Assembly: GCA_964536865.1 (NCBI GenBank)
Contig: CAZHYN010000009.1
Coordinates: 1-32,000 of the forward strand
DNA length: 32,000 bases
From: an uncultured Planctomycetia bacterium
GTDB taxonomy: Bacteria; Omnitrophota; Gorgyraeia; Duberdicusellales; 4484-171
Direction: 5' to 3'
The stretch's first letter is position 1. Each line of letters opens with the position of its first letter. The position numbers and the translations under genes are program-made. The notes beneath the pieces are model-generated. The model was not told the origin of the DNA, ran no database searches, and saw only the letters and a program-made list of their open reading frames with translations. Of this stretch, positions 8,217 through 32,000 are shown piece after piece.

Positions 8217-9638
8217 CTAATAAACTCCTTTGCCTTTCAAAACAGCGGGGATAGTCCACCACAATATTTTTAAATCCAAACCAAAAGACCAATGATTTAC
8301 ATACCAAAGATCCCATTTTACCCATTGAGAAAATGAAAGATCGGAACGTCCTCTCACTTGGGCTAATCCAGTTATTCCTGGCCTTATATTTAACCTTGGC
8401 AGATGATCGTAATGCATCTTTTCACTTTCCTCAACAGGGAAAGGTCTAGGCCCCACTAAACTCATATCTCCTTTTAAAACATTAATTAACTGAGGCAATT
8501 CATCTAAACTAAACTTTCTTAAGAACCGCCCCACACGTGTTACCCGAGGGTCTCTCCTCATCTTAAATATTACACCTCCCTTAGATTCATTTTTTTCTAA
8601 AAGAGCTGCTTTTATGTTATCGGCATCTTTTACCATAGAACGAAATTTGTAAAAATTAAATACTCTTCCTTTCCTTCCCATTCGTTTTTGAATATAAAAA
8701 ACAGGTCCTGGACTATCTATTTTTATGAGGATGCTCAGAATTAAAAATAACGGAGAGAGGATAAAAAGAAGAATCAGTGAAAGAAAAAAATCAAATACTC
8801 TCTTTATAGCTAACTCTGCAGGATGAATTTCCCTTTCTTTATACGTCAAAAGAGGAACCGAGCCTAAATAACTTATATTTATAGAAAACAAAGCTTCTTC
8901 AAAGTTTGCTGGGACAAGTCTTATACCTATATTCATATCTTTAGCAATTCTAGTGATTTTGGATATTACCTCTTTTTGATAAGAATCGGTTATAAACACT
9001 TCATCGATGAAATACTTTTTACAAATCTTCTTAAAGTCAGAAAGAGTACCCAAAAGAGGTAAATTTAAATCAGAATCTTTTTTAGAATCGTCTAAAACTC
9101 CGACAACATTTAATCCTAAAAATGGCCTTCGTTTTATCTCTTCAAAAAGTATCCTTGCTACTCTGTCTGTGCCCACGATAAGGATATTAAAATTATGGAA
9201 TCCTTTCTCTATAAGACTCCTTAAGATAAGTCTTTTTATAACTCTCCATAAGGTAAGGAAAACAATCATCAAAAGAAAATTTGCTAAGAATACCCAACGA
9301 GAGAAAAATTTAAACTTAGCAAAGAAGATGATAAAAGAAACAATCATAGAAGAAAAGAGAACGGATCTCAATACTAACATTATTTCTTTTGGTATGGTGA
9401 CGGTTCTATCTGTGGAATAAAGTTGTCTTCTTTTTAAAGAAATTACCGTCAGAAAACCCCACAGAGAAAAAATAAATAGATACTCTCTTAAATTAGGAAA
9501 GACTAAATTCTTAAACTCACGATGTAATAAAGATTCATAGTTATATCTTAAAAGATAAGGAATAAAAAATGAGAAGATTAGTACTACAATATCTACGCAG
9601 AAATAAATAATACGAACTCTATCTTGGAATCTAAACAT
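8217..9638 (-). CDS. Undecaprenyl-phosphate sugar phosphotransferase (WbaP/EPS priming glycosylphosphotransferase)
   Basis: Contains the bacterial sugar transferase motifs KRVFDF..., PGPVFYIQKRMGRKGRVFNFYKFRSM and DELPQLINVLKGDMSLVGPRP. N-terminal TM helices and a central Rossmann-like segment (NILIVGT) are also present. The ORF track start at 9671 is TTG; the first ATG is at 9638, 1 nt after the upstream stop. Confidence 0.9.
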   Translation of the reverse strand: MFRFQDRVRIIYFCVDIVVLIFSFFIPYLLRYNYESLLHREFKNLVFPNLREYLFIFSLWGFLTVISLKRRQLYSTDRTVTIPKEIMLVLRSVLFSSMIVSFIIFFAKFKFFSRWVFLANFLLMIVFLTLWRVIKRLILRSLIEKGFHNFNILIVGTDRVARILFEEIKRRPFLGLNVVGVLDDSKKDSDLNLPLLGTLSDFKKICKKYFIDEVFITDSYQKEVISKITRIAKDMNIGIRLVPANFEEALFSINISYLGSVPLLTYKEREIHPAELAIKRVFDFFLSLILLFILSPLFLILSILIKIDSPGPVFYIQKRMGRKGRVFNFYKFRSMVKDADNIKAALLEKNESKGGVIFKMRRDPRVTRVGRFLRKFSLDELPQLINVLKGDMSLVGPRPFPVEESEKMHYDHLPRLNIRPGITGLAQVRGRSDLSFSQWVKWDLWYVNHWSFGLDLKILWWTIPAVLKGKGVY

Positions 9639-9639
9639 C

Positions 9640-10410
9640 TTATACTTGGCGATTTTTAAAATAGTTTGCAATTAACTCTTTTACCGCACAAAATACGAAC
9701 AGGCTTCCATTTATGAGATATCTTTTCCATAATCTCTTAGGCTCAGTAAGGAGTCTAAATAACCACTCAAAACCATTATCTCTTATCCAACGTGGTGCCT
9801 GAGGTTTTGTTCCTGCTAAAAAATCAAACGCAGCTCCTACTCCTACCATAACAGGGACTTTTAGTTTATCTTTATTTTCATACATCCAAAGTTGTTGTTT
9901 AGGACAACCTAATCCTACCCAAACAATATCAGGGGAAAGCTCGTTTATCATCTCAATTATAACCCTATCCTCATCTTCACTCAGTTCCCGAAAAGGTGGA
10001 GAATAAACACCTTTTATATTAAGCCTGGGGAAATTACTGATCAATTTTTCTCTTAAACGGTTTAAAGTTTCAGTAGTTGAGCCATAAAAGAAATTAGTAT
10101 AACCCTCTGCTTGAGCACGCCTTAAAAATTCAAGCATCAATTCAGCCCCATAAACCCTTCTTTTCAATTTAAATCCGTAAAATCTTGAAGCGAGGACAAT
10201 GGAGATACCATCTGGAACAGTTAAAGAACTTCCATTCATTGCTACCCTCACCTGAGGCATCTTTTTACCTATCACAACATCATTAGCATTTGCCACAGCC
10301 ACATAATTCCCATACTCTTTTTTCTCTATCCATCCCTCCATAATCTTGATAACATCCGGTATCTGAACCATATCAACTCTTACCCCACAAATCTTAATTG
10401 AACCTTTCAT
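9640..10410 (-). CDS. WecG/TagA/CpsF-family glycosyltransferase (GT26)
   Basis: 256-aa ORF. ICGVRVDMV.., VAVANANDVV and VGLGCPKQQLWM match GT26 signatures. Confidence 0.85.
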   Translation of the reverse strand: MKGSIKICGVRVDMVQIPDVIKIMEGWIEKKEYGNYVAVANANDVVIGKKMPQVRVAMNGSSLTVPDGISIVLASRFYGFKLKRRVYGAELMLEFLRRAQAEGYTNFFYGSTTETLNRLREKLISNFPRLNIKGVYSPPFRELSEDEDRVIIEMINELSPDIVWVGLGCPKQQLWMYENKDKLKVPVMVGVGAAFDFLAGTKPQAPRWIRDNGFEWLFRLLTEPKRLWKRYLINGSLFVFCAVKELIANYFKNRQV

Positions 10411-10412
10411 AA

Positions 10413-11606
10413 TTACCTACCAGCCTTTTCTTTTGCCAACTTATATATTTCCATTAACATCTCATAATTTTTTTCTGCTGTATATTTTCTTTCATATTCT
10501 TTACGAGCTTCCCATCCCATCTCTGCCATCTCTTTTGGATGATTCCATGCCCAAGCTACCTTATCCGCTAAATCCTCAGAATTCCCATGTTCAAAAAGCA
10601 AACCATTATAACCATCTATCACCAATTCCCTAAGCCCACCTATACAAGAAGCAATAACCGGCACCCCATAAGCAAAACTCTCCAAAATTGAATACGGCAT
10701 ATTTTCATACCATTCACTCGGTAAAACTGTAACACTTGCCTTTCTTAGTATGCTATCCTTTTTATCTCCGTTTAAATAACCTATAAAAGAAACATTATTA
10801 AGTTTTTGTCTTTGTATAATCTCCTTAACTTCTTCAACTAAAGGACCGTCCCCAGCAATAACAAGCCTAAAATTCTTTATCTTTTCAAATCCTTCAAGCA
10901 AAGTCAAAATCCCCTTCTCTTTTGAAATCCTTCCAAGATATAAAACATAGTCTTCAAATTTTTCAATATCGATATCTTTTTTCACCTCTACAAAATGAGG
11001 CTTAAATATGATTTTCGCCTTTCTAAAATCTTTGGTTCCCTTCATTTTACGCTTAAGAAAATTACTTGGAGATATAAAAATATCAATCTTTTTTGTAAAT
11101 GTTTTGAAAATTTTTCTGTAGATAAAAATTATTAATGAAACAATTAAACTCTGAAAAAAACTATTTCTATAACATCTGTTTATTACTCCATAAATAAAAT
11201 TTCCATTTTTGCATTTTTCGCAAATTTTACCATTATTTAAAAGAAACAAACCATTAAGACATAAAAATCTATAATTATGTAATGTCTGAACGACTGGAAT
11301 GTTATATTTTTTTGCTATAAAATAAACAGAAGGAGAAATTCTTAAAAAAATATTGTGAACATGAATTACATCTGGCTTAAATTTTTTTATAATTTTTTTG
11401 AGTTCCCTATATGTAGCAAAAGAAAAGAAAATTTCAAAAATCTTAAAAATTCTTTCAAACAAGTTCCCTTTTTTGAACTCCTCATTACTCTTTGTATATA
11501 AATAAACCAAATGGCCGTTTTCCTCCAGAATTCTTTTTTCACTAAAAACTGTTGTATCCTCTCCTCCCTTTTTTAAATAAAAATTATGAATTATTAAAAT
11601 TTTCAT
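10413..11606 (-). CDS. Glycosyltransferase family 4
   Basis: 397-aa ORF. N-terminus MKILIIHNFY..GGEDT, and the E-x7-E region SEWYENMPYSILESFAYGVPVIAS. Confidence 0.85.
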   Translation of the reverse strand: MKILIIHNFYLKKGGEDTTVFSEKRILEENGHLVYLYTKSNEEFKKGNLFERIFKIFEIFFSFATYRELKKIIKKFKPDVIHVHNIFLRISPSVYFIAKKYNIPVVQTLHNYRFLCLNGLFLLNNGKICEKCKNGNFIYGVINRCYRNSFFQSLIVSLIIFIYRKIFKTFTKKIDIFISPSNFLKRKMKGTKDFRKAKIIFKPHFVEVKKDIDIEKFEDYVLYLGRISKEKGILTLLEGFEKIKNFRLVIAGDGPLVEEVKEIIQRQKLNNVSFIGYLNGDKKDSILRKASVTVLPSEWYENMPYSILESFAYGVPVIASCIGGLRELVIDGYNGLLFEHGNSEDLADKVAWAWNHPKEMAEMGWEARKEYERKYTAEKNYEMLMEIYKLAKEKAGR

Positions 11607-23900: not shown

Positions 23901-24314
23901 TTAACTAAAATTACCCTGCCCTACTCCTTTGTACTCTTTGTAAGTTCTCAATCTCTCCCATTCCTGTTTCAAGTAATTATACTCCGCCTCAGCTCGTTTT
24001 AAGAAATAGTAGGTTAAACGAACTTTTTCTTTAAAACCCTTAGGAGTTAATATATAGCTTATCTTCTTAATCTTACCAGGACGATGGGAGAAATTTTTTG
24101 CCTTTATTAACCCTTTTTTTATAAGTTTCCGCAGAAGGTAATTGGTTTTGCCTAAGGAAATATTCAATTTTGAGGAAAGTTGGCGTTGAGTAACATCAGG
24201 GGATTTAGAAAGCTCAGAAAGAAGATAGAATACCTCTTCTTTTAGCTGATCTTTAGAATTCAGATTTAGAAGCCTTTTTCCCTCTATACCTGGTTTACAA
24301 ATTTCTTGCTGCAT
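23901..24314 (-). CDS. MarR-family, EPS-locus-associated winged-helix transcriptional regulator
   Basis: 137-aa ORF. TQRQLSSKLNISLGKTNYLLRKLIKKGLIK followed by YILTPKGFKEK fits the EPS-associated MarR subfamily. It sits directly upstream of the polysaccharide operon. Confidence 0.75.
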   Translation of the reverse strand: MQQEICKPGIEGKRLLNLNSKDQLKEEVFYLLSELSKSPDVTQRQLSSKLNISLGKTNYLLRKLIKKGLIKAKNFSHRPGKIKKISYILTPKGFKEKVRLTYYFLKRAEAEYNYLKQEWERLRTYKEYKGVGQGNFS

Positions 24315-24329
24315 AAATACTACAAATTG

Positions 24330-24346
24330 TGTTCATATGATGAACA
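24330..24346. promoter_or_regulatory. Palindromic operator candidate TGTTCAT-ATG-ATGAACA
   Basis: Perfect 7+7 inverted repeat at 24330-24346, between the predicted -10 (24349-24354) and the MarR ATG (24314). Confidence 0.4.
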
Positions 24347-24348
24347 AT

Positions 24349-24377
24349 ATTCTATTACTACACAATAAATCTGTCAA
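24349..24377 (-). promoter_or_regulatory. Sigma70-like promoter TTGACA-N17-TAGAAT for the MarR gene
   Basis: On the minus strand, TTGACA is at 24377-24372, followed by a 17-nt spacer and TAGAAT at 24354-24349. Confidence 0.45.
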
Positions 24378-24400
24378 TATAGTAAAGAATGGCATAGTTT

Positions 24401-24598
24401 ATCTACACCCTTACATACCTGGCGGGTGTGATTAGTTAAGCAAGTCTACACATTTTTGGTGCACCAGTGACAAGAGCACCAGTGCACCAGTTTTATTGTA
24501 GCAATCTTCCAATAACAGGTTTCGCTTTCTTTCTGTTTTTGGCTTTAATAGCAATTGTAAGTTGACAAAACAAGTATTGCTTGATCTGTAAACTTACA
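24401..24598 (-). repeat. Diverged third copy of the hairpin-rich intergenic repeat, plus a GCACCAGTG mini-repeat
   Basis: ACACCC...GGGTGTGATTAGTT (24405-24436) parallels CACACCC-N3-GGGTGTGATTGATT of copy A. A TGTAAGTT...AACTTACA hairpin lies at 24556-24598. GCACCAG occurs 3 times within 24459-24490. Confidence 0.45.
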
Positions 24599-24620
24599 TA
24601 CAAGAAGACTCTGGAGAAGT

Positions 24621-25955
24621 TTAAAATTCAAAATCCTCAAGGTCATATACTAAAAATCCTTTTTTTCTTAATATTTCTTTATTCTCTATTCTTTTTGCTA
24701 TCAGGCCCCAAAACTTCTTTTTGAAATTTTTCTTTATAACTTCTGTCTTTTCTTTTAACTTTACCAAAATATTTTCCGCCTCTTTATTTTTTAATTCTTT
24801 CCATTTACATTCAAAAAAACCTATTTTATTTTTACCTGTTGTAACTATATCAATCTCATAAGAAGTCCCTTTCTCTTTTCCCCATTGTTTACCGATTTTT
24901 ATAAATTCAAAAGGTAAGTATTTTCTTTTCTCGATAAGAAACTCCATAGATATTTTCTCAAAGACATACCCTAAATATTGATTGTATTCTTTTTTTATCT
25001 CTCCAGCAGAAAAAATTCCCTCTTCAATAAAGGTAAGATTGGGATAAATAAATCTGAACCAGAAACTTAAAAAGTTATCTTTAAGATAATATCTTCCTTT
25101 TCTTGACTTTGTTGATCCTAATATAGGAATTCTTTTTTCTATAAATTCAGTCTCTATTAAGTTTTTCAGATAAGGAGTAATATCAGCACCTTTTAGTCCT
25201 ATATAATTTTTGATTTCTCCTAATTTAGTATTTCCTAAAGCAATTGCCTCCAGTATTTTTTTATAGGTGCTTGTATCTTTAAACTCATATTTCATAAGAA
25301 AATCTATCTCTGTTTTTAGAAATGTATCTATTTTTTTTATTTCTTTATCCAGCCACCTCCAGAAAGGATATTCTATTTTGTCTAAATAAAAAGGGATACC
25401 GTCGCTGAATCCATAGATTTCTATCAGTTCTTCCTTAGAGGCCTGGGGAAAGAAATCTTTTATCTGAAAAATTTTTAATGGTTTTAGTTTTATTTCCCCT
25501 GTTTTTCTTCCAAATAAAGGAGCCTGATAACTTAAGACTTTACTTTCCATTAAAGATATAGATGAACCTAAAAGAATAAGTTTTGTGTGGGAATCTTTTA
25601 ATATAGTATCAACTATTCTTTGAAAAAGAGAGACTATTTTGGGATTCTCTTTTATTAAATTAGGAAACTCATCTATGATAATTATTTTATTTTTCAAGAA
25701 ATTAAATAAAGCCTCCCAATCTGATTGAACATATTTTAGCTGAGGGAAATTTTTTGAGGCTACTGCTTTAAATTTTCTTAAATTATTTTCTTCTGTGGCT
25801 AAGTAGTAAATGAAATTTTTATTACGGACACTTTCTAAAGAAAGAGCGGTTTTTCCTATACGTCTTCTTCCATAAATAATATATAATTCAAATTTTTTAC
25901 TTTTTAGTTTTTCTCTTAAAGCTTCCAGTTCCTTTTCTCTATTTATAAATTTCAT
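24621..25955 (-). CDS. P-loop ATPase, Arch_ATPase (ATPase_2) + DUF234 family
   Basis: 444-aa ORF. N-terminus FINREKELEAL, Walker A GRRRIGKT, Walker B IIIIDEF. A central wHTH-like segment is followed by a C-terminal EIDIV...ECKW nuclease-fold-like DUF234 signature. Confidence 0.85.
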   Translation of the reverse strand: MKFINREKELEALREKLKSKKFELYIIYGRRRIGKTALSLESVRNKNFIYYLATEENNLRKFKAVASKNFPQLKYVQSDWEALFNFLKNKIIIIDEFPNLIKENPKIVSLFQRIVDTILKDSHTKLILLGSSISLMESKVLSYQAPLFGRKTGEIKLKPLKIFQIKDFFPQASKEELIEIYGFSDGIPFYLDKIEYPFWRWLDKEIKKIDTFLKTEIDFLMKYEFKDTSTYKKILEAIALGNTKLGEIKNYIGLKGADITPYLKNLIETEFIEKRIPILGSTKSRKGRYYLKDNFLSFWFRFIYPNLTFIEEGIFSAGEIKKEYNQYLGYVFEKISMEFLIEKRKYLPFEFIKIGKQWGKEKGTSYEIDIVTTGKNKIGFFECKWKELKNKEAENILVKLKEKTEVIKKNFKKKFWGLIAKRIENKEILRKKGFLVYDLEDFEF

Positions 25956-25977
25956 AATTTAGATTATCCTAATTTAG

Positions 25978-26005
25978 ATTATATAAATTATAAAAAGGTT
26001 GTCAA
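25978..26005 (-). promoter_or_regulatory. Near-consensus sigma70 promoter TTGACA-N16-TATAAT
   Basis: On the minus strand, TTGACA is at 26005-26000, followed by a 16-nt spacer and TATAAT at 25983-25978, about 22 nt upstream of the ATPase ATG (25955). Confidence 0.5.
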
Positions 26006-26153
26006 GGCTCTCTCCTTTATATAAAACTATTTTATCCCTGTACAAAAAACAATCTTTTTTACACAACTTTCAGAAAGAGATTTAAACATTCTCAAATTCT
26101 TAAGAATATTGGAATAGTTTTTGTTAATCATTATCACTTTATCCAGCAAAATC

Positions 26154-26336
26154 CTACTTTTTCATAAAACTGGAGTTATGCAAAAGATTCCTGGGAATTC
26201 TTAAGACAATTCTTCCATCAGGTAACTGATAAAAAACTCTTTCTCCAACACAAAAAACATTGGGCAAACCTAATTTTCTGTTTTCTGCTTGCGCTTTTCT
26301 TACAGCTTTGGTAAATATTGTAAGTATTTCTATCAT
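26154..26336 (-). CDS. Hypothetical small protein (60 aa)
   Basis: ATG-initiated ORF. Its ATG overlaps (ATGA) the stop of a possible 53-aa upstream ORF. No family recognised. Confidence 0.4.
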   Translation of the reverse strand: MIEILTIFTKAVRKAQAENRKLGLPNVFCVGERVFYQLPDGRIVLRIPRNLLHNSSFMKK

Positions 26337-26494
26337 CTCTTGATAAATAGTTTTAGGCTTCTGCCTTTTTTTTCATCCCTTCTCCTTTTTCCTGGCAATA
26401 TAGATAAAAATCTTTTAAAATTTTCCTCATCTATTATAGTATAATCTTCCTTTTCTCCACATGCTACTAAAAATGGGTATAATAAATAATTCAC
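26333..26494 (-). CDS. Possible 53-aa ORF (GTG start), speculative
   Basis: Hand translation gives VNYLLYPFLVACGEKEDYTIIDEENFKRFLSILPGKRRRDEKKGRSLKLFIKR*. The stop TGA at 26335-26333 overlaps the next ATG. It is below the size cut-off of the ORF track, has a weak RBS, and contains no ATG in frame. Confidence 0.2.
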   Translation of the reverse strand: MNYLLYPFLVACGEKEDYTIIDEENFKRFLSILPGKRRRDEKKGRSLKLFIKR

Positions 26495-26536
26495 TCTTCA
26501 TCTTGAACAACTCAACATTTATTCCTGCACCCTCCT

Positions 26537-27736
26537 TCAATAAAGAAAACCAAAAAGCCATAAGGGAATCCTGTTTTTAAATCCCACAATTATATCATCT
26601 ACTGCTAAAAAAGTATCTTGAGAGCCTTTAAACTTTTTCTCTTTACCTCCAACTTCAAATGATATTCCTTTACTATCTACAAAATCTACTTTATCAGAAT
26701 AATATAGTTTTTTCAAAACTCCTACCTGATTAAGAAAGAATGTCTCTCTAATGTTTCCCTTCTCTATACTAAAACCTTTCTCTTGTTCAATAAGGTAAAA
26801 AAGATTACTGTTTTCTAAATATATCTTTTGAGGTTTACGCAATAAACTAAATCCTTTTGCTTTTGAATAGAGTAAAATAAATAAACCTGCTTTTTGAAGT
26901 TCCTCAATATAAGTATAAATGTATTCCTTGGAAATTCCTAACTGTGAACTTATCTTAGAAATGTTAGGAATAAAAGGTTGAGAGGTGGCTACTAAGTAAA
27001 AAAGTTTTTTTAAATTATAGATTGTGAAGTGTTTAATATTAAAAAGCGAGGGTATATCTTCGTAGAATATTTTTTCTATTACATTACCTAATTTATTATA
27101 GAAGGATTCAATCCCTTCCTTAAAAAAGGGATAATAACCATATTTTAGATATTCCCTAAAGTATTTTAGAACAGGAAGTTGTGAACTGACCTCATCTGCC
27201 AATTTTATATGTTCTTTGGGCAGTTCCTTAAAATTAATGGACTTGAATTGCTTCTTTAGACGCAAAACTAAATATTCTCTGAAAGAAAGCCCCCTTAAAT
27301 TATAAAAAACTGCTCTACGAGAAAGGTCTCCTTTTCCTTTTAAAATACCTATACTTGAACTCCCTGAAAATATTATCTTTTTTTTAGGAAATGAATCATA
27401 AATATTCTTTAATTCTATTTGCCAATCAGGATATTTGTGGATTTCATCTATAAGAAGACCTTTTCCTCCAAATTTGAAAAACTCCTCGGCTATATTATAT
27501 AATCCTCTATTTATCACGTTTATATTATCTGCGGAAAGGTATAGACAATCCTGAGGAGTTCTAAAATTATGCAGATAATACTGTAAAAGTAAAGTAGTTT
27601 TACCTACTCCCCTTGCTCCTACAATCCCTATAAGACGATTACCCCAATTTATTTTTTCAAAAAGGTATCTTCTATAAAAGAATTTTTCTACCTCCTTAAT
27701 AAGTGACAACTGAATTTCTATAAATTTCTCTATCAT
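26537..27736 (-). CDS. AAA+ P-loop ATPase, COG1373-like (AAA_14/DUF4143-type)
   Basis: 399-aa ORF. Walker A GARGVGKT, Walker B LLIDEIHKYPDW, and the characteristic C-terminal ...FEVGGKEKK...IPLWLFGFLY tail. Confidence 0.85.
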   Translation of the reverse strand: MIEKFIEIQLSLIKEVEKFFYRRYLFEKINWGNRLIGIVGARGVGKTTLLLQYYLHNFRTPQDCLYLSADNINVINRGLYNIAEEFFKFGGKGLLIDEIHKYPDWQIELKNIYDSFPKKKIIFSGSSSIGILKGKGDLSRRAVFYNLRGLSFREYLVLRLKKQFKSINFKELPKEHIKLADEVSSQLPVLKYFREYLKYGYYPFFKEGIESFYNKLGNVIEKIFYEDIPSLFNIKHFTIYNLKKLFYLVATSQPFIPNISKISSQLGISKEYIYTYIEELQKAGLFILLYSKAKGFSLLRKPQKIYLENSNLFYLIEQEKGFSIEKGNIRETFFLNQVGVLKKLYYSDKVDFVDSKGISFEVGGKEKKFKGSQDTFLAVDDIIVGFKNRIPLWLFGFLY

Positions 27737-27759
27737 AAGATTCCTTATATGTAAAGTAT

Positions 27760-27788
27760 AGTTTACTATTTTTGATAAAATCCGTCAA
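27760..27788 (-). promoter_or_regulatory. Sigma70-like promoter TTGACG-N17-TAAACT
   Basis: On the minus strand, TTGACG is at 27788-27783, followed by a 17-nt spacer and TAAACT at 27765-27760. AAGGA lies 6 nt before the ATG at 27736. Confidence 0.35.
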
Positions 27789-28098
27789 CTACAATTTACT
27801 CTCATATACTCTGGCTATCTCTTTTAGTTCTATCACTCCAGTTACTATCTACAGCGATAATCTCTGTTTTATCTTGAGGATAGATTAAATCTCATTAAGC
27901 AGTTTTCTATGTTTTTCTTCATCTCTGAAAACCTACCTCTTGTCAATAAAAACTTCTTTATTTTGTTTTTCTACTTTATTTTATATTCTTTTAATGGTAT
28001 TTAAGCCATTTATCTCTTCATTTCACTAAGGAGACAATTTTGTCCCTTTATTAAAACAGTTATTTCAACTCCTGGAGTTGTGTCTTCACATTTGGCAT

Positions 28099-28326
28099 TC
28101 ATCTACTTATCAGATAATACCCTGCTCCACCAGTAACAAGAACAGTTGGAGGTTGGAAGTTGGAGGTTTGATGTTTGAGGTTGGATGATTGACGTTTGAT
28201 GATTTGGGTTGATAAAACAAAATCTTCTGATTTAGGAAATTTCTTAGAAAGGTTGTAAATCTCCTTAACTAGATTATTGGCTAACTTATATACTTCTAAA
28301 TTTTCAAAATTATATTTTTGATACAT
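28099..28326 (-). pseudogene. Truncated four-helix-bundle protein gene (23S rRNA IVS-protein / Avd-like family) running into heptamer repeats
   Basis: MYQKYNFENLEVYKLANNLVKEIYNLSKKFPKSEDFVLSTQIIK matches the first ~44 aa of the family (..ENL.VWQ.A..L...IY.LT..FP..E...L.SQ..R). The remaining ~70 aa are missing. The frame continues through heptamer-encoded RQSSNLKHQTSNFQPP. Confidence 0.65.
28144..28213. repeat. Tandem heptamer array, 10 units, consensus NGTT(G/T)GA
   Basis: Read directly: AGTTGGA GGTTGGA AGTTGGA GGTTTGA TGTTTGA GGTTGGA TGATTGA CGTTTGA TGATTTG GGTTGAT. Confidence 0.9.
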
Positions 28327-28330
28327 AATT

Positions 28331-28379
28331 CTAACATCTAACATCTAACATCCAACATCCAACATCTAACATCTAATCA
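28331..28379. repeat. Tandem heptamer array, 7 units, C(T/C)AACAT (reverse complement of the 28144-28213 family)
   Basis: Read directly: CTAACAT x3, CCAACAT x2, CTAACAT, CTAATCA. The reverse complement, GTT(A/G)GAT, is the same family as the downstream array, so the two arrays are inverted. Confidence 0.9.
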
Positions 28380-28457
28380 GCCCTAAATATTCCTGCTTCC
28401 CCTATCTTTTCCACTTTTGCGCAAAACTGGAATTCTTTCTGCCATTTCTGCCTCTTT

Positions 28458-28499
28458 CCTACCTACTACCTCCTGTCTACTGCCTACTATCTACTGTCC
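28458..28499. repeat. Third heptamer array, ~6 units, consensus ACTNCCT / CT(A/G)(C/T)CTA
   Basis: Read directly: CCTACCT ACTACCT CCTGTCT ACTGCCT ACTATCT ACTGTCC. It overlaps the last codons of the ATPase gene 28477-29787. Confidence 0.8.
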
Positions 28500-29787
28500 G
28501 CAGTAGCCATTTCCACAAAGGAATGAATTTTATTTTTATCTTGTTAATATTCAATTCTTCTTCATAATCCCAGGTAATTATTGACAAATTTTTACATTTT
28601 AATAAAGAGCTTGCTTTTTTTAAAAAATCTATTTCTTTTTTCTCCATCTCCTCTATTGTATTTATAAAACTAACTTGAATTAAATTTTTAATTTCAGAAC
28701 CTTCCTTTATCAAAAAATCTATCTCCCTTTGCTGATGGTCTTTGTAATAGTAAATTTCCCAATTATTTTGCCAGTAACTCTTTCTTCTTAAAAGCTCTAC
28801 AGCTACCAGATTCTCCATAAGTTTTCCTATATTTTCAGAAATTTTAAAAGAAATAACATCTGCCATTGCTGTATCAATACAATAAATCTTTTTGGGAGCA
28901 ATTTCCTGCTGTTTCAGTTTTGGGGAGTATCTTTCGAGAACAAAGAGTAAATAGGAATCTTCTAAAGCCCCCAACCAATTCTTTAAAGTATGCACATCTT
29001 TTATCTCAAATATATGAGAAAGTTTTCTCATCGTAAATTCAGAAGAAATGTTTGAAATCAGGTATCTGGCAACTCTTTTAAAAGTTTCTTTTCTTTTAAT
29101 TTTATATCTTTTTAAAATATCTTTTTCAATTATATCGGCATAAATTCGAGAAAGTATTTCTCTACCTAATATATAAACTTCAGGAAAACCTCCAATTTTT
29201 ATATACTCTTCTAAAAAACTTTTTATCTGGGCTATCTCAGAAACAGAATAAAAAGTATCTTTTTCAATTTTAAATCCTTTATAATCTAAAAACTCTCGGA
29301 AACTAAAAGGAAATAGATTAAAATCAATGTATCTTCCTGTTAGATGTGTAGAAAGTTCTCCAGAAAGTAATTTAGAATTACTCCCTGTAATTATCAGGCT
29401 TTTAGTTCTTCTTAATCTATTTACAAATAACTCCCATTTTTCAACATTCTGGGGCTCATCTAAAATCATTCTTTCTATTTTTCCATAAAGCTCATAGAAT
29501 GCCTGTAAAATTTTATCTAAATCTTCTGTTTTTATATCTGCTAATCTTTCATCGTCAAAATTAATATAGGCAAAAGCTTTATCTGATAAAGAAGAAAAAA
29601 TCTGCCAAGAAAAGATAGACTTGCCACATCTTCTTACACCTAAGATTGCCAGAATATTAGGGTGGAAAAGAAATTTTTTTAATCTATTCTTTTCTGGTTC
29701 TCGCTCTATAATTTTGCTCTTTTTAAATTTCTCCTCTATCTCTTCTTTTTGAGAAATAATCACTTTTTTAAGTATTTCTACATTCAT
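28477..29787 (-). CDS. AAA_14 + DUF4143 P-loop ATPase (COG1373 family), paralog Z
   Basis: Walker A GVRRCGKS, Walker B MILDEPQ, and a C-terminal REIDFLIK...IQVSF nuclease-fold-like region. The ORF track start at 29793 is GTG; the first ATG is at 29787. The C-terminus ...KIKFIPLWKWLL is shared with 31227-32000. Confidence 0.85.
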   Translation of the reverse strand: MNVEILKKVIISQKEEIEEKFKKSKIIEREPEKNRLKKFLFHPNILAILGVRRCGKSIFSWQIFSSLSDKAFAYINFDDERLADIKTEDLDKILQAFYELYGKIERMILDEPQNVEKWELFVNRLRRTKSLIITGSNSKLLSGELSTHLTGRYIDFNLFPFSFREFLDYKGFKIEKDTFYSVSEIAQIKSFLEEYIKIGGFPEVYILGREILSRIYADIIEKDILKRYKIKRKETFKRVARYLISNISSEFTMRKLSHIFEIKDVHTLKNWLGALEDSYLLFVLERYSPKLKQQEIAPKKIYCIDTAMADVISFKISENIGKLMENLVAVELLRRKSYWQNNWEIYYYKDHQQREIDFLIKEGSEIKNLIQVSFINTIEEMEKKEIDFLKKASSLLKCKNLSIITWDYEEELNINKIKIKFIPLWKWLLRTVDSRQ

Positions 29788-29940
29788 AACCACATATTTT
29801 TTATAAAAGTTTGCAGTTTCAATTTATTATACCTTCATAATTTTACCTCTACAAGTAATTTTTGTCCCAAATTATTACGATTATCATAACCTTATCTTCT
29901 TCGCCTCCCTGAGGCAGATGGTTTCTCAATCTTCTATTCC

Positions 29941-30113
29941 CTACCTTCCTAATTTCTTCTTACACTCCCCTTTCAGCAGCCATTTCCATAAAGGAATGAA
30001 TTTTATTTTTTTACCTTTAAATTTATCTTCTGCTTCGTAATCCCAGGTTATTTTAATAAGTTGTCACTATTAAGTTCTTTACTGGCTTTAATGAAGAGGT
30101 GATTTCTCTTTCC
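29941..30113 (-). pseudogene. Frameshifted 3'-end stump of a third DUF4143 ATPase paralog
   Basis: Hand translation gives ...RNHLFIKASKELNSDNLLK* in one frame, then ITWDYEAEDKFKGKKIKFIPLWKWLLKGEC... in another. This parallels KREIKSLFEASEELKCNNLSIITWDYEAEDEFKGKKIKFIPLWRWLLEGKEL of the 31227 gene. 29974-30048 is about 95% identical to 31245-31319. Confidence 0.7.
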
Positions 30114-30228
30114 TTAATGGATATTTGCCTTAATGGATATTTGGAGACAAAACTTCCAAAAGGAGATCTCGCTTCCGCTCTAAATGTTCTCCTGCATTGA
30201 AGAGATAGCCCTTCACTTTCCAAGAGTC

Positions 30229-30696
30229 TCAGAAGGTTTGCCTTCTACGGCCCTCTTTGCCTTCTTCGTTCAGCTTATCCTTTACCAATAAATCTATTGA
30301 CATACCCCATAAAATCATAAAAGTCGCCCAGCCGGTTTTGTAAAATCTCGTATATTTTTTTAAGTCTAAATCAACGTATTCATGCACAAGAATATTTCTT
30401 AATCCTGCCATACCACGAATGGTTTTAGCAAATTCAGAAGGAATTATTTCCCTCTCCCCTAACTTATCAATAATATCTACATAATCTTCAATTTGATTTT
30501 CTCCTATAGAGGCTAAAATATGATTACCCACATCAAAAATAATTTGAATTGATAGTTGCAATCCGTGACAAATTAACCACTGCTTGCCTAAGGATGAGGA
30601 AAAATCTTTCCAGGGAATATCTCTGTTTTTCTCTAATTCTTTCAAGTAGATACTTAATTCCTGAAACTTCTTTTCAATTACTTCCTTATCAATCAT
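30229..30696 (-). CDS. hepT: HepT-like HEPN-domain toxin (DUF86)
   Basis: 155-aa ORF with the Rx4-6H motif GLRNILVHEY. It sits 42 nt downstream of the nucleotidyltransferase partner. RBS GGGGAGGGG. Confidence 0.85.
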   Translation of the reverse strand: MIDKEVIEKKFQELSIYLKELEKNRDIPWKDFSSSLGKQWLICHGLQLSIQIIFDVGNHILASIGENQIEDYVDIIDKLGEREIIPSEFAKTIRGMAGLRNILVHEYVDLDLKKYTRFYKTGWATFMILWGMSIDLLVKDKLNEEGKEGRRRQTF

Positions 30697-30738
30697 TTTC
30701 CCCTCCCCTTTTTTTGCTCCATTAAAGAAGGTAGTCCG

Positions 30739-31134
30739 CTAACGCGATTTAAGCAGATATTTATAATCGTTATATCTATTAATTGTATCTATCTGAAACT
30801 TAATGCGTTTTCTTTCGTCTTGACTATAGATAATTTTTCCGAAATATAAAATACGGTGCCTTAAGAGAGGATTTGCTTCATCAAGAATTACCAAATCGAC
30901 ATTATTTGTTTTTAACAGCTGAACTAAATCTGCTAATATTTCTGACTTATATCCATAAGGGTAAATCTTTTCTTTAATTCTATCTCTGTCTATAAGTAAG
31001 GCAATATCAATATCACTTAAGGGGTTCATCCTTCCCCGGGCTAAAGAGCCAAATACATAAGCAACCTCAACTTCGGGATGCATTTTGAAATACTCTTTTA
31101 ATATTTCTTGAACTTCATTAATATTTCTTACCAT
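30739..31134 (-). CDS. mntA: MntA-like minimal nucleotidyltransferase antitoxin
   Basis: 131-aa ORF with the minimal NTase signature AYVFGSLARGR...SDIDIALL (GS-x-D-x-D). Confidence 0.85.
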   Translation of the reverse strand: MVRNINEVQEILKEYFKMHPEVEVAYVFGSLARGRMNPLSDIDIALLIDRDRIKEKIYPYGYKSEILADLVQLLKTNNVDLVILDEANPLLRHRILYFGKIIYSQDERKRIKFQIDTINRYNDYKYLLKSR

Positions 31135-31226
31135 CTTAATGGCTATTGACTTTCGGAGTCAGCTCTTTACATTTGACTACACCTACGCGGTGTAAGAGGT
31201 TCTTCGGTTTTCTACCCACCATCTTT

Positions 31227-32000
31227 TCACAACTCCTTTCCTTCCAGCAGCCACCTCCATAAAGGGATGAATTTTATTTTTTTACCTTTAAATTCATCTT
31301 CTGCTTCGTAATCCCAGGTAATAATTGATAGATTATTGCACTTCAATTCTTCACTTGCCTCAAATAAAGATTTTATTTCTCTTTTCCTAACTTCAAAATT
31401 ACTTATTTCATAACAAGTCTGCATTAATTCTTCAATCTCTGCTTTTTTTAAAACAAAATCAACTTCTTTTTTATTTCTTGTTTGATAATAAAAAACATCT
31501 CTATTTAATCTATAACCCCTTCTTAAAGTTTCAACAAAAACCAGATTTTCCATTAGTCTTCCTGTATTTTGAGAAAACCTGAATGCTTTTGCCAGAATAA
31601 AACCATTATTAACAAGATAAATCTTTCTGGGAGACTTAATCTGCTCTTTTACTTTAAAAGAAAACCTATCCAGTGGGAAAAAGAGATAAGCTTCTTCAAG
31701 ATATTTTAAATATTTCTGAAGTGTGTTTGTGCTTCTGAATTTTAAAATATTTTTTAACTTATTAAAACTGAACTCAGAACAAAAATTACTTATTAAATAA
31801 ACTGCCAAATCATAAATTTCTTGAGAAAATCTTACTCTGTATCTTTTTACTACATCTTTAAATAAGATAGCATCAAAAAGTGTCTCTAAATAAGTTTCTG
31901 CAGGCAAATTCTTTAAAACTACTTCTGGAAAACCACCTTTTTTAAGATATTCATCTAAATAACCTAAAATTTTACCTTTGACTTCAGGTATTTTTAAATA
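31227..32000 (-). CDS. AAA_14 + DUF4143 ATPase, paralog X (5' end outside the window)
   Basis: The listed ORF starts at a TTG (31907). The frame stays open to position 32000 (YLKIPEVKGKILGYLDEYLKKGGFPEVVLKN-LPAETY...) and aligns with residues ~190 onward of paralog Z (FLEEYIKIGGFPEVYIL...). The gene is therefore partial. Confidence 0.85.
   Translation of the reverse strand, partial: YLKIPEVKGKILGYLDEYLKKGGFPEVVLKNLPAETYLETLFDAILFKDVVKRYRVRFSQEIYDLAVYLISNFCSEFSFNKLKNILKFRSTNTLQKYLKYLEEAYLFFPLDRFSFKVKEQIKSPRKIYLVNNGFILAKAFRFSQNTGRLMENLVFVETLRRGYRLNRDVFYYQTRNKKEVDFVLKKAEIEELMQTCYEISNFEVRKREIKSLFEASEELKCNNLSIITWDYEAEDEFKGKKIKFIPLWRWLLEGKEL

What the first reader, a model, noticed from the sequence alone, without database searches (positions are those of the whole stretch)
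28099..28379. Four-helix-bundle gene stump enclosed by inverted arrays of GTTNGAN heptamers (IVS-like stem-loop outside rRNA)
Seen directly:
- Ten tandem heptamers at 28144-28213 (NGTT(G/T)GA).
- Seven tandem heptamers at 28331-28379 (C(T/C)AACAT) that are the reverse complement of the same family.

The two arrays are inverted and could pair into a long imperfect stem around a 117-nt spacer. That spacer carries only the first ~44 codons of a four-helix-bundle protein. This family was first described as ORFs inside stem-loop intervening sequences of 23S rRNA, and DGR Avd proteins belong to the same family. The reading frame then dissolves into heptamer-encoded low-complexity sequence.

An ORF in the loop of a long repeat-built stem, sitting in an ATPase/TA island rather than in an rRNA gene, is not explained by any standard feature type. 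Tandem heptamers recall cyanobacterial STRR repeats, but the unit sequence here is different. Possible roles are a selfish stem-loop element, an RNase III-type processing substrate, or a recombination/slippage hot spot that has eroded the gene.
Basis: partly seen in the sequence, partly recalled or inferred. Interest (0 to 1): 0.7.

Follow-up and report, generated by a model that had tools for sequence, protein, structure and literature searches.

The report
Decayed hairpin-flanked four-helix-bundle gene cassette
This is the broken remnant of a small gene cassette, a four-helix-bundle gene held between two inverted runs of 7-base repeats; intact copies turn up in many bacteria, and the design has so far been described only for the intervening sequences of 23S ribosomal RNA.

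Summary
Two inverted GTTNGAN heptamer arrays (28145-28201 and 28330-28378) enclose the first 42 codons of a PF05635 four-helix-bundle (4HB) gene.

Related contigs show what it was. L003 and L022 carry the same module with an intact 119-aa gene. Its stop overlaps the start (ATGA) of an epimerase gene, and the downstream array encodes that gene's N-terminal leader.

The window copy lost 4HB codons 43-119 in a deletion that ends exactly at the first downstream repeat unit. Only about 15 epimerase codons remain. It is a relic with a weakened stem (duplex z -2.5, against -7.4 in L003).

The architecture is general. About 8-10 of 12 4HB loci on finished plasmids are bracketed by inverted tandem 7-8-mers, each with a different core sequence. 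These come from cyanobacteria, Azospirillum and Gemmatirosa.

One genomic site occurs empty, filled, and with a solo array. In ten contigs the cassette is 100% identical while its flanks are about 86% identical.

Truncated stubs next to arrays recur, in L004, L086, L110, L114 and a finished Nostoc plasmid.

The Coxiella 23S IVS, which has heptamers before its 4HB ORF, is the only described relative I found.

How the arms work (RNA stem, or DNA hairpin and recombination) remains inferred.

The parts
28409..28432 (-). 24-nt palindrome TTCCAGTTTTGCGCAAAAGTGGAA at the 5' edge of the conserved module
   Evidence: Single copy in the window with 1 mismatch to the consensus. Exact copies occur in L001 and L003. 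It aligns with L001 and L003.
28379..28408 (-). Conserved leader (AGCAGGAATATTTAGGGCTGAT) between the palindrome and the upstream array
   Evidence: 97% identical to L003 and L001 over 28202-28432. Also present in L008.
28330..28378 (-). Upstream (5') arm: 7 units of GTTRGAT on the gene's sense strand, ending 3 nt before the 4HB ATG
   Evidence: The same arm, with different unit order and number, is seen in L001, L003, L004 and L008.
28202..28326 (-). 4HB (PF05635) gene stub: codons 1-41 plus 2 nt of codon 42
   Evidence: PF05635 positions 1-37 of 106. tblastn gives 100% identity to P0006 residues 1-42. The alignment to intact L003 stops at 28202.
28201..28202 (-). Deletion junction: 4HB codon 42 is joined directly to the first unit of the downstream array. 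4HB codons 43-119, the ATGA overlap and 8 further nt are missing.
   Evidence: Alignment A2 of the window against L003, L001 and L022. The same junction sequence, ACCCAAAT|CATCAAACGT, is present in L004.
28145..28201 (-). Downstream (3') arm: 8 units of NTCNAAC on the sense strand. In intact loci this arm is the coding leader of the next gene.
   Evidence: In L002, L004, L005, L009, L020 and L144 the leader translates as ...HQTSNIK....
28099..28144 (-). Stub of a UXS-type NAD-dependent epimerase/dehydratase gene (VLVTGGAGY, then diverged sequence and a stop)
   Evidence: tblastn of the L005 epimerase hits 28102-28194 at 59% identity. The same truncated stub is in L003 and L022.
28077..28098 (-). 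Conserved tail of the module (AATGCCAAATGTGAAGACAC...). Beyond it the window, L003 and L022 all diverge from one another.

Best explanation
The feature is a decayed copy of a recurrent cassette: a PF05635 four-helix-bundle (4HB) gene bracketed by two inverted arrays of short tandem repeats. In this lineage the repeats are heptamers with the core GTTNGA. In intact copies the arms can pair into a roughly 45-50-bp imperfect stem that closes the ORF into a loop, the same design as the ORF-bearing intervening sequences of 23S rRNA. In this lineage the cassette sits at the 5' end of a polysaccharide-cluster epimerase gene. Its stop codon overlaps a new start codon (ATGA), and the downstream arm is translated as an N-terminal leader, so the host gene stays intact. 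The window copy has been damaged twice. First, the host epimerase was cut after about 15 codons; this older event is shared with L003 and L022. Second, a deletion running from 4HB codon 42 to the first unit of the downstream arm removed two thirds of the 4HB gene. The remaining ~42 residues (from the MYQ start) cannot form a four-helix bundle, and the stem is weakened, so the copy is most likely non-functional. SHOWN: the anatomy; homology to intact cassettes; the deletion junction; complementarity of the arms in intact copies; filled, empty and solo-array states at one site; the sharp drop in identity at the arrays; purifying selection on intact 4HB genes; and recurrent stubs. INFERRED: that the arms act by pairing, that the cassette spreads or is exchanged by recombination in the arrays, and that hairpin-associated replication errors cause the deletions. 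If the arms act in RNA, the stem would be a long duplex and possibly an RNase III substrate, as in the rRNA IVS. If they act in DNA, it would be a hairpin or cruciform that promotes template switching and recombination. I cannot separate the RNA and DNA options. I lean slightly towards DNA-level instability for the decay seen here, and towards RNA-level pairing as the conserved property of intact copies.
For: Identity and decay:
- PF05635 N-terminal match.
- Intact 119-132-aa homologues are identical over the retained residues.
- L003 and L022 carry the same module with an intact gene and the same epimerase stub.
- blastn shows the window shares only 28077-28458 with all related loci.
- No other 4HB or UXS-epimerase remnant is in the window.

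Cassette design:
- The ATGA stop/start overlap and the array-encoded leader occur in L002, L004, L005, L020 and L145. L009-L018 have the same array-encoded leader but a separate start codon just after the stop (TAGAATG). The leader stays in frame in all of them, at 51, 72, 72, 108 and 171 nt.
- L004 and L020, the same locus, differ by 63 nt, which is 9 units.
- In L019 the same cassette stands in front of a different gene, a GT4-like glycosyltransferase.

Stem:
- Arm duplex z-scores are -7.4 (L003), -6.0 (L009), -5.6 (L020), -4.8 (L119) and -4.5 (L019), against -2.5 in the window.
- The whole L003 cassette folds with z -5.5, and the arm-arm stem is in both the MFE and the centroid structure.

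Indel and mobility signature:
- The NTP-transferase/epimerase junction occurs empty (L143), filled with heptamer arms (L005-L007), filled with 8-9-nt-period arms of the same GTTCGA core (L145), and with only the downstream arm (L144).
- In 10 contigs the 4HB gene is 100% identical at the nucleotide level and the arrays 99-100%. The epimerase immediately after is 86% identical (minimum 75%), and the upstream flank 85%.

Generality and covariation of the arms:
- Finished plasmids carry AGTAGGG/TCCCTAC, ACAGGTG/CTGTCAC, AGGAGATA/ATCTCCTA, AAGGCAG/CCTTCTG, TTAGCTG/AGCTAAA, TCAGGAG/CTCCTGA and AGCAGGG/CCCTGCT pairs. Azospirillum has 36-nt arms that are 86% complementary.
- The 4HB gene ranks 1st of 54 and 1st of 50 ORFs for complementarity between its two flanks.

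Protein function in intact copies: dN/dS is 0.09-0.26.

Recurrent decay:
- Stubs next to arrays occur in L004, L086, L110 and L114 and in the finished Nostoc N6 plasmid, where a 79-aa gene has an array at the truncation point.
- In the Coxiella IVS the heptamer number varies between strains, and one strain has a 176-bp deletion in the ORF (PMC4990558).
Against: - In the window the stem is barely better than shuffled sequence, and not at all with DNA parameters.
- No transposase, integrase or other mobility gene belongs to the cassette, and no target-site duplication or precise excision footprint was identified.
- The identity pattern comes from loci chosen for an identical 4HB protein.
- In this lineage the host gene's ATG lies on the loop side of the stem. 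RNase III cleavage in the stem would cut the epimerase ORF off from its start codon. This argues against obligatory processing here.
- Sense and antisense duplex energies are about equal, so there is no G-U signature of an RNA-specific constraint.
- More than 90% of GTTNGAN arrays in metagenomes have no adjacent 4HB gene. The arrays therefore also exist independently.
- Two plasmid 4HB families lack inverted arms: L150/L159/L162 have a downstream array only, and L165 has direct 8-mer arrays.
- Agreement between the two arms could come from quasipalindrome template switching rather than from selection for pairing.
Confidence: 0.72

Rival explanations
1. The heptamer hairpins are an independent, widespread family of intergenic repeats of the STRR type. 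The 4HB gene is a separate mobile guest that prefers to land in their loops. On this view the arrays are the target rather than the ends of the cassette, and the window shows a guest gene decaying inside a pre-existing hairpin.
For: At least 120 metagenome loci carry GTTNGAN arrays, over a GC range of 0.28-0.69. Many are inverted pairs with 1-100-nt spacers and no 4HB gene. Only about 10 of the 120 have a 4HB gene or fragment. Nostoc plasmid stretches hold many heptamer families and solo hairpins. L144 has a downstream array but no 4HB gene.
Against: The empty site L143 has no array at all, so at that site the arrays and the gene came or went together. In one search the arrays and the 4HB gene share the same 100% identity block. 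Each 4HB subfamily comes with its own repeat core. Solo hairpins and solo arms are equally well explained as end products of the decay series full cassette, then stub, then empty hairpin.
Confidence: 0.2
2. The arrays are simple-sequence contingency repeats. A 7-nt unit in the 5' coding leader of a surface-polysaccharide gene would switch that gene on and off by slippage (phase variation), and the 4HB gene is incidental.
For: The unit length is not a multiple of 3. The array lies in the 5' coding region of polysaccharide-cluster genes. Copy number differs between related loci: about 6-7, 13 and 20-22 units downstream, and 5 against 8 units in Nostoc strains.
Against: Every leader seen is in frame, and length differences are multiples of three units (21, 42 and 63 nt). 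Ten contigs from different samples have identical arrays. Units within an array are heterogeneous, which hinders slippage. A relative uses a 9-nt period that cannot shift the frame. Many arrays are in untranslated regions. This view does not explain the matching inverted arm upstream. In the window no downstream gene is left to switch.
Confidence: 0.08
3. The repeats are binding sites for a trans-acting protein or RNA-binding factor that controls translation or transcription of the adjacent genes. This has been proposed for TAACTGA heptamers in Beggiatoaceae and for paired tandem repeats in Geobacter. The inverted arrangement would reflect two operator-like sites rather than a stem.
For: The GTTNGA core is kept while positions 4 and 7, the period (7, or 8-9 nt) and the genomic GC content vary. 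Arrays often lie within a few nucleotides of start codons of unrelated genes such as lpxD, tsaD, trpS and cmk. Precedents are PMC4679880 and PMC2700814.
Against: Conservation of the core in the metagenome set was imposed by my search pattern. Across 4HB loci found independently the core differs completely while the complementarity of the arms is kept. That pattern points to pairing, or to a shared origin of the two arms, rather than to one recognised motif. No candidate binding protein was identified.
Confidence: 0.1
4. It is a remnant of a diversity-generating retroelement, with the 4HB stub being a broken Avd accessory gene.
For: Weak matches to bAvd (PF22296, E 0.006) and to NCBIfam DivGenRetAVD (E 0.009).
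Against: Both matches are far below their cut-offs and weaker than the PF05635 match. No reverse transcriptase was found in the window ORFs scanned with Pfam. None of the intact relatives has an RT neighbour. I did not search specifically for template/variable repeat pairs.
Confidence: 0.02

Closest known systems
ORF-bearing intervening sequences (IVS) of 23S rRNA (Coxiella burnetii, Leptospira, Brucella)
   Same: A PF05635 ('S23p') ORF sits in the loop of a stem formed by terminal inverted repeats. In Coxiella three to four tandem heptamers (GACAGAT) lie immediately upstream of the ORF's ATG. Their number varies between strains, and the RNase III 5' cut falls at the first repeat. ORF decay also occurs there, including a 176-bp deletion in one strain (PMC4990558).
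   Different: This element is not in rRNA: Rfam finds no rRNA in the window. It lies in protein-coding operons. Both arms are built wholly from tandem repeats. In this lineage the 3' arm is translated as the leader of the next gene through an ATGA overlap. Intact copies are under purifying selection, whereas the Coxiella authors consider S23p expendable.
Cyanobacterial STRR (short tandemly repeated repetitive) heptamer sequences
   Same: Both are tandem heptamers in intergenic regions with a different core in each family. On cyanobacterial plasmids the arms around 4HB genes are repeats of exactly this kind.
   Different: As far as I know, STRRs are described as dispersed repeats of unknown function, not as paired inverted arms around a specific gene family. 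That statement rests on my own knowledge and on literature searches that found nothing. The core here (GTTNGA) is different, and the hosts are uncultured lineages whose MAG records are labelled Omnitrophota or Saccharibacteria.
Intergenic TAACTGA heptamer direct repeats of Beggiatoaceae, Cyanobacteria and Bacteroidetes (MacGregor 2015)
   Same: Both are heptamer arrays within a few nucleotides of start codons of unrelated genes, sometimes inside ORFs. Both have a wide and patchy phylogenetic distribution and no known mechanism. The GTTNGAN arrays in metagenomes show the same placement.
   Different: The TAACTGA sets are almost all direct repeats (169 direct sets, one indirect). No link to 4HB genes is reported in the abstract (I did not read the full text). 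The core sequence differs.
MITE-like decay series of mobile elements (autonomous element, then internally deleted derivative, then ends only)
   Same: A full cassette (L003), internally deleted stubs (the window, L004, L086, L110, L114, Nostoc N6) and arm-only hairpins or solo arms (L144 and many metagenome loci) coexist.
   Different: The cassette encodes no transposase. The ends are variable tandem arrays rather than fixed terminal inverted repeats. No target-site duplications were seen.
Phase-variable simple-sequence contingency loci, such as the 7-bp repeats upstream of H. influenzae hmw genes
   Same: Short tandem repeats at the 5' end of surface-structure genes, with copy number varying between strains.
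   Different: All variants observed here keep the reading frame. The units are heterogeneous, and there is a matching inverted arm.

Membership tests
PF05635 / TIGR02436 four-helix-bundle protein (23S rRNA-intervening sequence protein) | Sequence match to the family profile above the curated cut-off | tested here: met
   Pfam PF05635: 35.4 bits against a cut-off of 33.8, E 1.3e-08. TIGR02436: 23.7 bits against a cut-off of 24, so just below. The stub is 100% identical to residues 1-42 of P0006, which is annotated PF05635.
PF05635 / TIGR02436 four-helix-bundle protein (23S rRNA-intervening sequence protein) | Full-length domain of about 106 profile positions forming four helices | tested here: not met
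   Only profile positions 1-37 are present. Codons 43-119 are deleted. It is a gene fragment, not a functional member.
23S rRNA intervening sequence (IVS) element | Located inside a 23S rRNA gene (helix 9, 25 or 45) | tested here: not met
   No Rfam family reaches its gathering score anywhere in the 32-kb window, and there are no tRNAs. The neighbours are protein-coding genes.
23S rRNA intervening sequence (IVS) element | Terminal inverted repeats that pair into a stem enclosing the element | tested here: met
   Weak in the window (z -2.5 to -2.9). Strong in intact relatives (z -4.5 to -7.4; whole-cassette z -5.5).
23S rRNA intervening sequence (IVS) element | A PF05635 ORF in the loop (the ORF-bearing subclass) | tested here: met
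   Truncated in the window. Intact in L001-L003, L005-L020 and L145.
23S rRNA intervening sequence (IVS) element | Excision from the transcript by RNase III cleavage in the stem | not testable with these tools
   This needs transcript-end mapping or in vitro RNase III assays. In this lineage the position of the host gene's ATG on the loop side argues against obligatory cleavage.
Diversity-generating retroelement (Avd accessory gene) | An adjacent reverse transcriptase and a template/variable repeat pair | tested here: not met
   No RT domain in the window ORFs scanned or next to intact relatives. The Avd model scores are far below their cut-offs. No dedicated TR/VR repeat search was run.
Phase-variable simple-sequence contingency locus | Repeat-number changes that shift the reading frame or the promoter spacing of the controlled gene | tested here: not met
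   All leaders are in frame, and differences are multiples of three units. Arrays are identical across 10 contigs. Within-population variation could not be assessed.
STRR-type tandem heptamer repeats | Tandem heptanucleotide units, dispersed, mainly intergenic | tested here: met
   The period-7 arrays here and in at least 120 metagenome loci. The named STRR families have other cores and are defined in cyanobacteria, so this is a resemblance of kind, not membership of a named STRR family.

The most novel reading that the evidence does not exclude
PF05635 four-helix-bundle genes enclosed by inverted tandem-repeat arms form a single, widespread class of hairpin-bounded cassettes that insert into, or are exchanged within, operons of many phyla. 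On this reading the ORF-bearing 23S rRNA intervening sequences are just the members that landed in rRNA, and many 'orphan' heptamer hairpins and STRR-like arrays are the empty shells left when the gene decays. The stump in this window would be a caught intermediate in that decay.
Probability: 0.35. Interest if true: 0.85.

Novelty: new variant of a known kind. Interest (0 to 1): 0.66.

Why it matters
Three old loose ends would be tied together.

- What the 23S rRNA intervening sequences are and where they come from.
- Why thousands of 'four helix bundle protein' genes sit wedged between operon genes. Here they are seen between cas6 and cas4, between cmr2 and cmr3, between the two ribonucleotide reductase subunit genes, and in polysaccharide clusters.
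- What generates the tandem heptamer repeats (STRR and relatives) that have been catalogued in bacterial genomes since 1990 without an explanation.

If the hairpin-plus-4HB unit is one element class, it gives a concrete and testable model. One can ask whether the arms are processed in RNA, whether the pentameric 4HB protein binds them, and whether filled and empty sites interconvert.

There is also a practical gain. Gene callers currently add array-encoded extensions such as MLDVRCWMLDVR- to 4HB proteins. Some array-derived leaders on downstream genes, such as -HQTSNIK-, appear to be genuinely translated. Knowing the architecture lets annotators tell the two cases apart.

The locus in this window is itself only a dead remnant. 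Its value is as the pointer to the class, and as evidence that the arrays drive gene erosion.

Tried and rejected
- **Rfam.** An E-value search of 27800-28700 and a gathering-threshold search of the whole window found nothing.
- **Promoters and terminators.** The scan gave nothing beyond the shuffle expectation and no terminator.
- **Source contig.** An exact-protein lookup of the neighbouring 438-aa ATPase found no record. The organism is inferred only loosely, from a shared module in an Omnitrophota MAG (L022).
- **Genome-collection scan.** The scan with the 4HB alignment returned only 4 loci, so it was of limited use for statistics.
- **First HMM too narrow.** My first 4HB HMM, built from close relatives, missed divergent members such as L056 and L085. 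A broadened HMM fixed this.
- **Phase variation.** Considered and rejected for lack of any out-of-frame variant.
- **DGR remnant.** Rejected because there is no reverse transcriptase.
- **G-U asymmetry.** I looked for it between the sense and antisense duplexes to separate RNA-level from DNA-level pairing. There was none, so the test was uninformative.
- **Microhomology at the junction.** None was convincing (0-1 nt). The same junction occurs in L004, so the stub allele is either older than this locus or arises recurrently. I could not decide which.
- **Literature.** Searches for the repeat sequences, and for any link between STRR or heptamers and 4HB genes, found only the Coxiella IVS paper. 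Subscription journals are not covered.
Full report
**1. What is in the window**

On the minus strand, reading 5' to 3', the region 28458-28077 holds the following parts:
- a 24-nt palindrome (28432-28409);
- a conserved 30-nt leader;
- seven GTTRGAT heptamers (28378-28330);
- three bases, then an ATG (28326);
- 42 codons that match the N-terminus of PF05635 four-helix-bundle (4HB) proteins;
- eight NTCNAAC heptamers (28201-28145);
- 'TVLVTGGAGY', a few more codons and a stop (28099).

Both arrays are found by Tandem Repeats Finder. The two arrays are paired as 42-nt arms that are 79% complementary. They are the only matches in 32 kb to a three-unit pattern: 11 hits against 0.05 expected.

The ORF passes the Pfam gathering score for PF05635 but covers only profile positions 1-37 of 106.

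The stem that the two arrays can form is only modestly better than chance. RNA folding gives z -2.6 and -2.9 on the two strands. The arm duplex is -37.0 kcal/mol with z -2.5. DNA parameters give z -1.2. No Rfam family, rRNA or tRNA is present.

**2. What it used to be**

A protein search found intact 119-132-aa homologues that are identical over the retained residues. Several gene calls among them begin with MLDVRCWMLDVR, which is simply the upstream array translated.

Their contigs show the intact design:
- an upstream GTTRGAT array;
- the 4HB gene;
- a stop codon overlapping a start codon (ATGA; in L009-L018 the start follows the stop, TAGAATG);
- a downstream NTCNAAC array read in frame as a leader such as MKNQHQTSDIQHRTSNFKPQT;
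- 'ILVTGGAGFIGSH...', the start of a UXS-type NAD-dependent epimerase/dehydratase in a polysaccharide cluster.

L003, and L022 from a MAG labelled Candidatus Omnitrophota, carry the same module as the window. This includes the palindrome, the leader and an already truncated epimerase stub with the same tail, AATGCCAAATGTGAAGACAC. In both, the 4HB gene is intact.

Alignment A2 places the window's deletion exactly. The 4HB sequence ends at 28202, two bases into codon 42. The next base, 28201, is the first base of the first downstream unit (CATCAAACGTCA...). The window shares nothing but 28077-28458 with any related locus, and it holds no other piece of the 4HB gene or the UXS epimerase.

The rest of the window is a polysaccharide gene cluster (1-23.7 kb, all on the minus strand) followed by ATPase and toxin-antitoxin genes. 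The stub therefore lies at the upstream edge of the kind of cluster that usually hosts this cassette.

**3. The stem is real in intact copies**

Arm-against-arm RNA duplex energies are far beyond shuffled controls in intact cassettes:

| Locus | Duplex energy (kcal/mol) | z |
|---|---|---|
| L003 | -57.1 | -7.4 |
| L009 | -41.8 | -6.0 |
| L020 | -48.5 | -5.6 |
| L119 | -46.4 | -4.8 |
| L019 | -34.5 | -4.5 |
| window | -37.0 | -2.5 |

The whole 506-nt L003 cassette folds at -117.8 kcal/mol, against -87.8 ± 5.5 for shuffles (z -5.5). The arm-arm stem encloses the ORF in both the MFE and the centroid structure. The window's downstream array has drifted in unit composition, which explains its weaker stem.

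**4. The cassette behaves as a discrete, exchangeable unit**

- *One site, several states.* The junction between an NTP-transferase gene and the epimerase gene occurs in four forms.
  - Empty (L143): the epimerase starts MENMGTKKLELKSKN and overlaps the upstream gene.
  - Filled with the heptamer cassette (L005-L007).
  - Filled with a related cassette whose arms have an 8-9-nt period but the same GTTCGA/TCGAAC core (L145, leader MKTLRTPRIPRTLRTPRTSRT).
  - Carrying only the downstream arm with the cassette's own ATGAAAAACCAA start (L144).
- *How common.* Among the 120 closest epimerase homologues, about seven have array-encoded leaders. Most have the 'empty' N-terminus.
- *A second host gene.* In L019 the cassette precedes a different gene, a GT4-like glycosyltransferase. 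Both arms there use GTTCGA units.
- *Sharp identity boundary.* In ten contigs from different samples the 4HB gene is 100% identical at the nucleotide level and the arrays are 99-100% identical. The epimerase immediately downstream averages 86% (minimum 75%), and the upstream flank averages 85%. The caveat is that these loci were retrieved by exact 4HB protein identity. That selection does not explain the absence of synonymous differences or the sharp boundary.
- *Frame is kept.* Leader lengths are 51, 72, 72, 108 and 171 nt, all in frame. L004 and L020, the same locus, differ by exactly nine units. The leader therefore appears to be translated and its frame selected.
- *The protein is selected.* Intact 4HB genes have dN/dS of 0.09-0.26, so the protein is functional where it is intact.

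**5. The architecture is general, and the arms covary**

I tested in both directions.

- Units vary at positions 4 and 7.
- Many loci are inverted pairs with 1-100-nt spacers.
- The two arms of a pair share unit types, and unit types differ between loci.
- About 10 of the 120 loci have a 4HB gene or fragment beside an array.
- All three pairs with roughly 420-510-nt spacers contain a 4HB gene (L056, L085, L119). A fourth pair, L132 (577-nt spacer), encloses an ORF with no 4HB match.

*Genes first, in finished sequence.* I used tblastn of the 4HB protein against complete plasmids and inspected 12 independent loci.
- About 8-10 have inverted tandem arms, each with its own core. The clearest eight:

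| Host | Arm cores or arm description |
|---|---|
| Nostoc edaphicum | AGTAGGG / TCCCTAC (duplex -86 kcal/mol, z -6.8) |
| Anabaena sp. 90, between cas6 and cas4 | ACAGGTG / CTGTCAC |
| Picosynechococcus, between cmr2 and cmr3 | AGGAGATA / ATCTCCTA |
| Stanieria | AAGGCAG / CCTTCTG |
| Calothrix | TTAGCTG / AGCTAAA |
| Several Nostoc and Aulosira | TCAGGAG / CTCCTGA |
| N. flagelliforme | AGCAGGG / CCCTGCT (duplex -124 kcal/mol, z -10.2) |
| Azospirillum | 36-nt heptamer-periodic arms, 86% complementary |

- A Chryseobacterium chromosomal 4HB gene (L021) has AT-rich 37-nt arms.
- All 12 plasmid loci have at least one adjacent tandem array.
- Exceptions: one family has only a downstream array next to a transposase, and one has direct 8-mer arrays.
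- As a control, in two 50-kb plasmid stretches the 4HB gene ranks first of 54 and first of 50 ORFs for complementarity between its flanks. In Anabaena pANA02 the ACAGGTG heptamer arrays occur only at the 4HB/cas4 locus.
- A second 4HB gene in L009 and L010 has GTYATNN arms.
- Copy number varies between finished Nostoc strains: 5, 5 and 8 units upstream, and 5, 5 and 6 downstream.

**6. Decay recurs at the arrays**

Besides the window, truncated 4HB genes abut arrays in L004 (same junction sequence as the window), L086, L110 and L114. The finished Nostoc N6 plasmid has another: the gene is 79 aa instead of about 121, with an array at the break. L004 also carries a short patch copied from its own downstream leader inside the 4HB gene, which looks like a template-switch product. 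With L144 and the many gene-less hairpins, this gives a plausible series: full cassette, then stub, then empty hairpin or solo arm. The series is inferred, not demonstrated.

**7. Comparison with what is known**

The closest described relative is the ORF-bearing 23S rRNA intervening sequence. In Coxiella the IVS has the following features (PMC4990558):
- a 28-bp terminal stem;
- three to four tandem heptamers (GACAGAT) directly upstream of the S23p ATG, in strain-variable number;
- an RNase III cut at the first repeat;
- a strain with a 176-bp deletion in the ORF.

The present element shares the design but fails the defining location test, because it is not in rRNA. It also differs in three ways: the arms are wholly tandem repeats, the 3' arm is coupled to the host gene by translation, and the protein is under purifying selection.

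Heptamer arrays near start codons have been described for TAACTGA in Beggiatoaceae. Paired tandem repeats have been reported in Geobacter. Neither was linked to 4HB genes. I found no paper linking STRR-type repeats to PF05635 genes. The library excludes most subscription journals, so this absence is weak evidence.

**8. Mechanism: what I commit to and what stays open**

With about 0.85 confidence, the window feature is a non-functional deletion derivative of such a cassette.

With about 0.6 confidence, arm-arm pairing is the conserved functional property of intact cassettes, because more than ten unrelated cores all keep their complementarity. Quasipalindrome template switching could homogenise the arms without selection, so this is not settled.

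Whether pairing matters in RNA or in DNA is undecided.
- For RNA-level action: the IVS precedent, and stems that hug the start and stop codons (L147).
- Against obligatory RNase III cleavage in this lineage: the host gene's ATG lies on the loop side of the stem.
- For DNA-level effects: the filled, empty and solo-array sites, the identity boundary at the arrays, copy-number changes and recurrent stubs.
- The sense and antisense duplex energies are equal, so they do not discriminate.

Phase variation, a regulator-binding array and a DGR remnant were considered and rank lower, for the reasons given under the rival explanations.

**9. Verdict**

The locus itself is a relic of little functional consequence. 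It does expose a widespread architecture that appears to be undescribed: a new variant of the IVS kind. Interest 0.66.

Noticed in passing
window 28459-28496: A third tandem heptamer array with a different core (CTACCTA on the + strand, NAGTAGN on the - strand; 5.3 copies, 76% matches). It lies immediately outside the conserved module and overlaps the stop codon of the 438-aa AAA_14/DUF4143 ATPase gene (28477-29793, -).
   Followed up: partly
window 28510-28540 and 29918-30040: The 3' end of the DUF4143 ATPase gene (encoding ...KIKFIPLWKWL) is repeated about 1.4 kb away: a short + strand ORF at 29918-30040 contains the same HFHKGMNFIF-encoding stretch. This suggests a remnant of another ATPase gene's C-terminus and repeated rearrangement in this island.
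   Followed up: no
window 23901-31907: All genes in this 8-kb stretch upstream of the polysaccharide cluster are on the minus strand. They are a MarR-like HTH gene, an ATPase_2/DUF234 gene, two AAA_14 ATPase genes (one with DUF4143), a HepT/MNT (HEPN-nucleotidyltransferase) toxin-antitoxin pair and a DUF4143 fragment. L001 carries the cassette in a comparable variable island with TA, HEPN/NTP_transf_2 and DDE transposase fragments.
   Followed up: partly
L009 908-967 and L010 867-899: A GTCATNN heptamer array lies inside the coding region of the epimerase itself. L009 has 8 units and L010 has 4. The net length difference is 27 nt, so the frame is kept. The same GTCATNN/GTYATNN family forms the arms of a second 4HB gene about 1.3 kb downstream (L009 2283-2657).
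   Followed up: partly
L001 1680-1790 and 2200-2330: In L001 the downstream arm runs on into an inverted copy of the whole upstream flank (array, leader and palindrome), giving a roughly 100-nt inverted repeat around the 4HB gene. This could be a genuine rearrangement or a fold-back error in metagenome assembly. I could not tell which.
   Followed up: no
L154 (Anabaena sp. 90 pANA02) 43494-43523, 44157-44186 and 44724-44780: The type I-D cas operon has a 4HB cassette between cas6 and cas4. The cassette's downstream arm lies within the annotated 5' end of cas4. A third array of the same ACAGGTG family lies between cas4 and cas1d, so cas4 is itself bracketed by direct copies of the repeat. The same plasmid also carries a bona fide DGR (an RT gene plus avd) at 9043-10539.
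   Followed up: partly
L025, L030, L035, L048, L051, L058, L064, L076, L077, L081, L083, L142 (metagenome loci): These are inverted GTTNGAN array pairs with 1-100-nt spacers and no gene in the loop. They often lie immediately upstream of start codons of housekeeping genes such as lpxD, tsaD, trpS, cmk and ribosomal protein genes. In several (L051, L142) the two arms have the same unit order, so they are near-perfect long palindromes.
   Followed up: partly
P0013-P0131 (epimerase homologues): Most 'empty-site' epimerases start with short lysine-rich N-termini such as MENM..KKLELKSKN or ..NLKPTN. These resemble single array-encoded units (SNLKPQT), so they may be vestiges of earlier arrays at the same position.
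   Followed up: no
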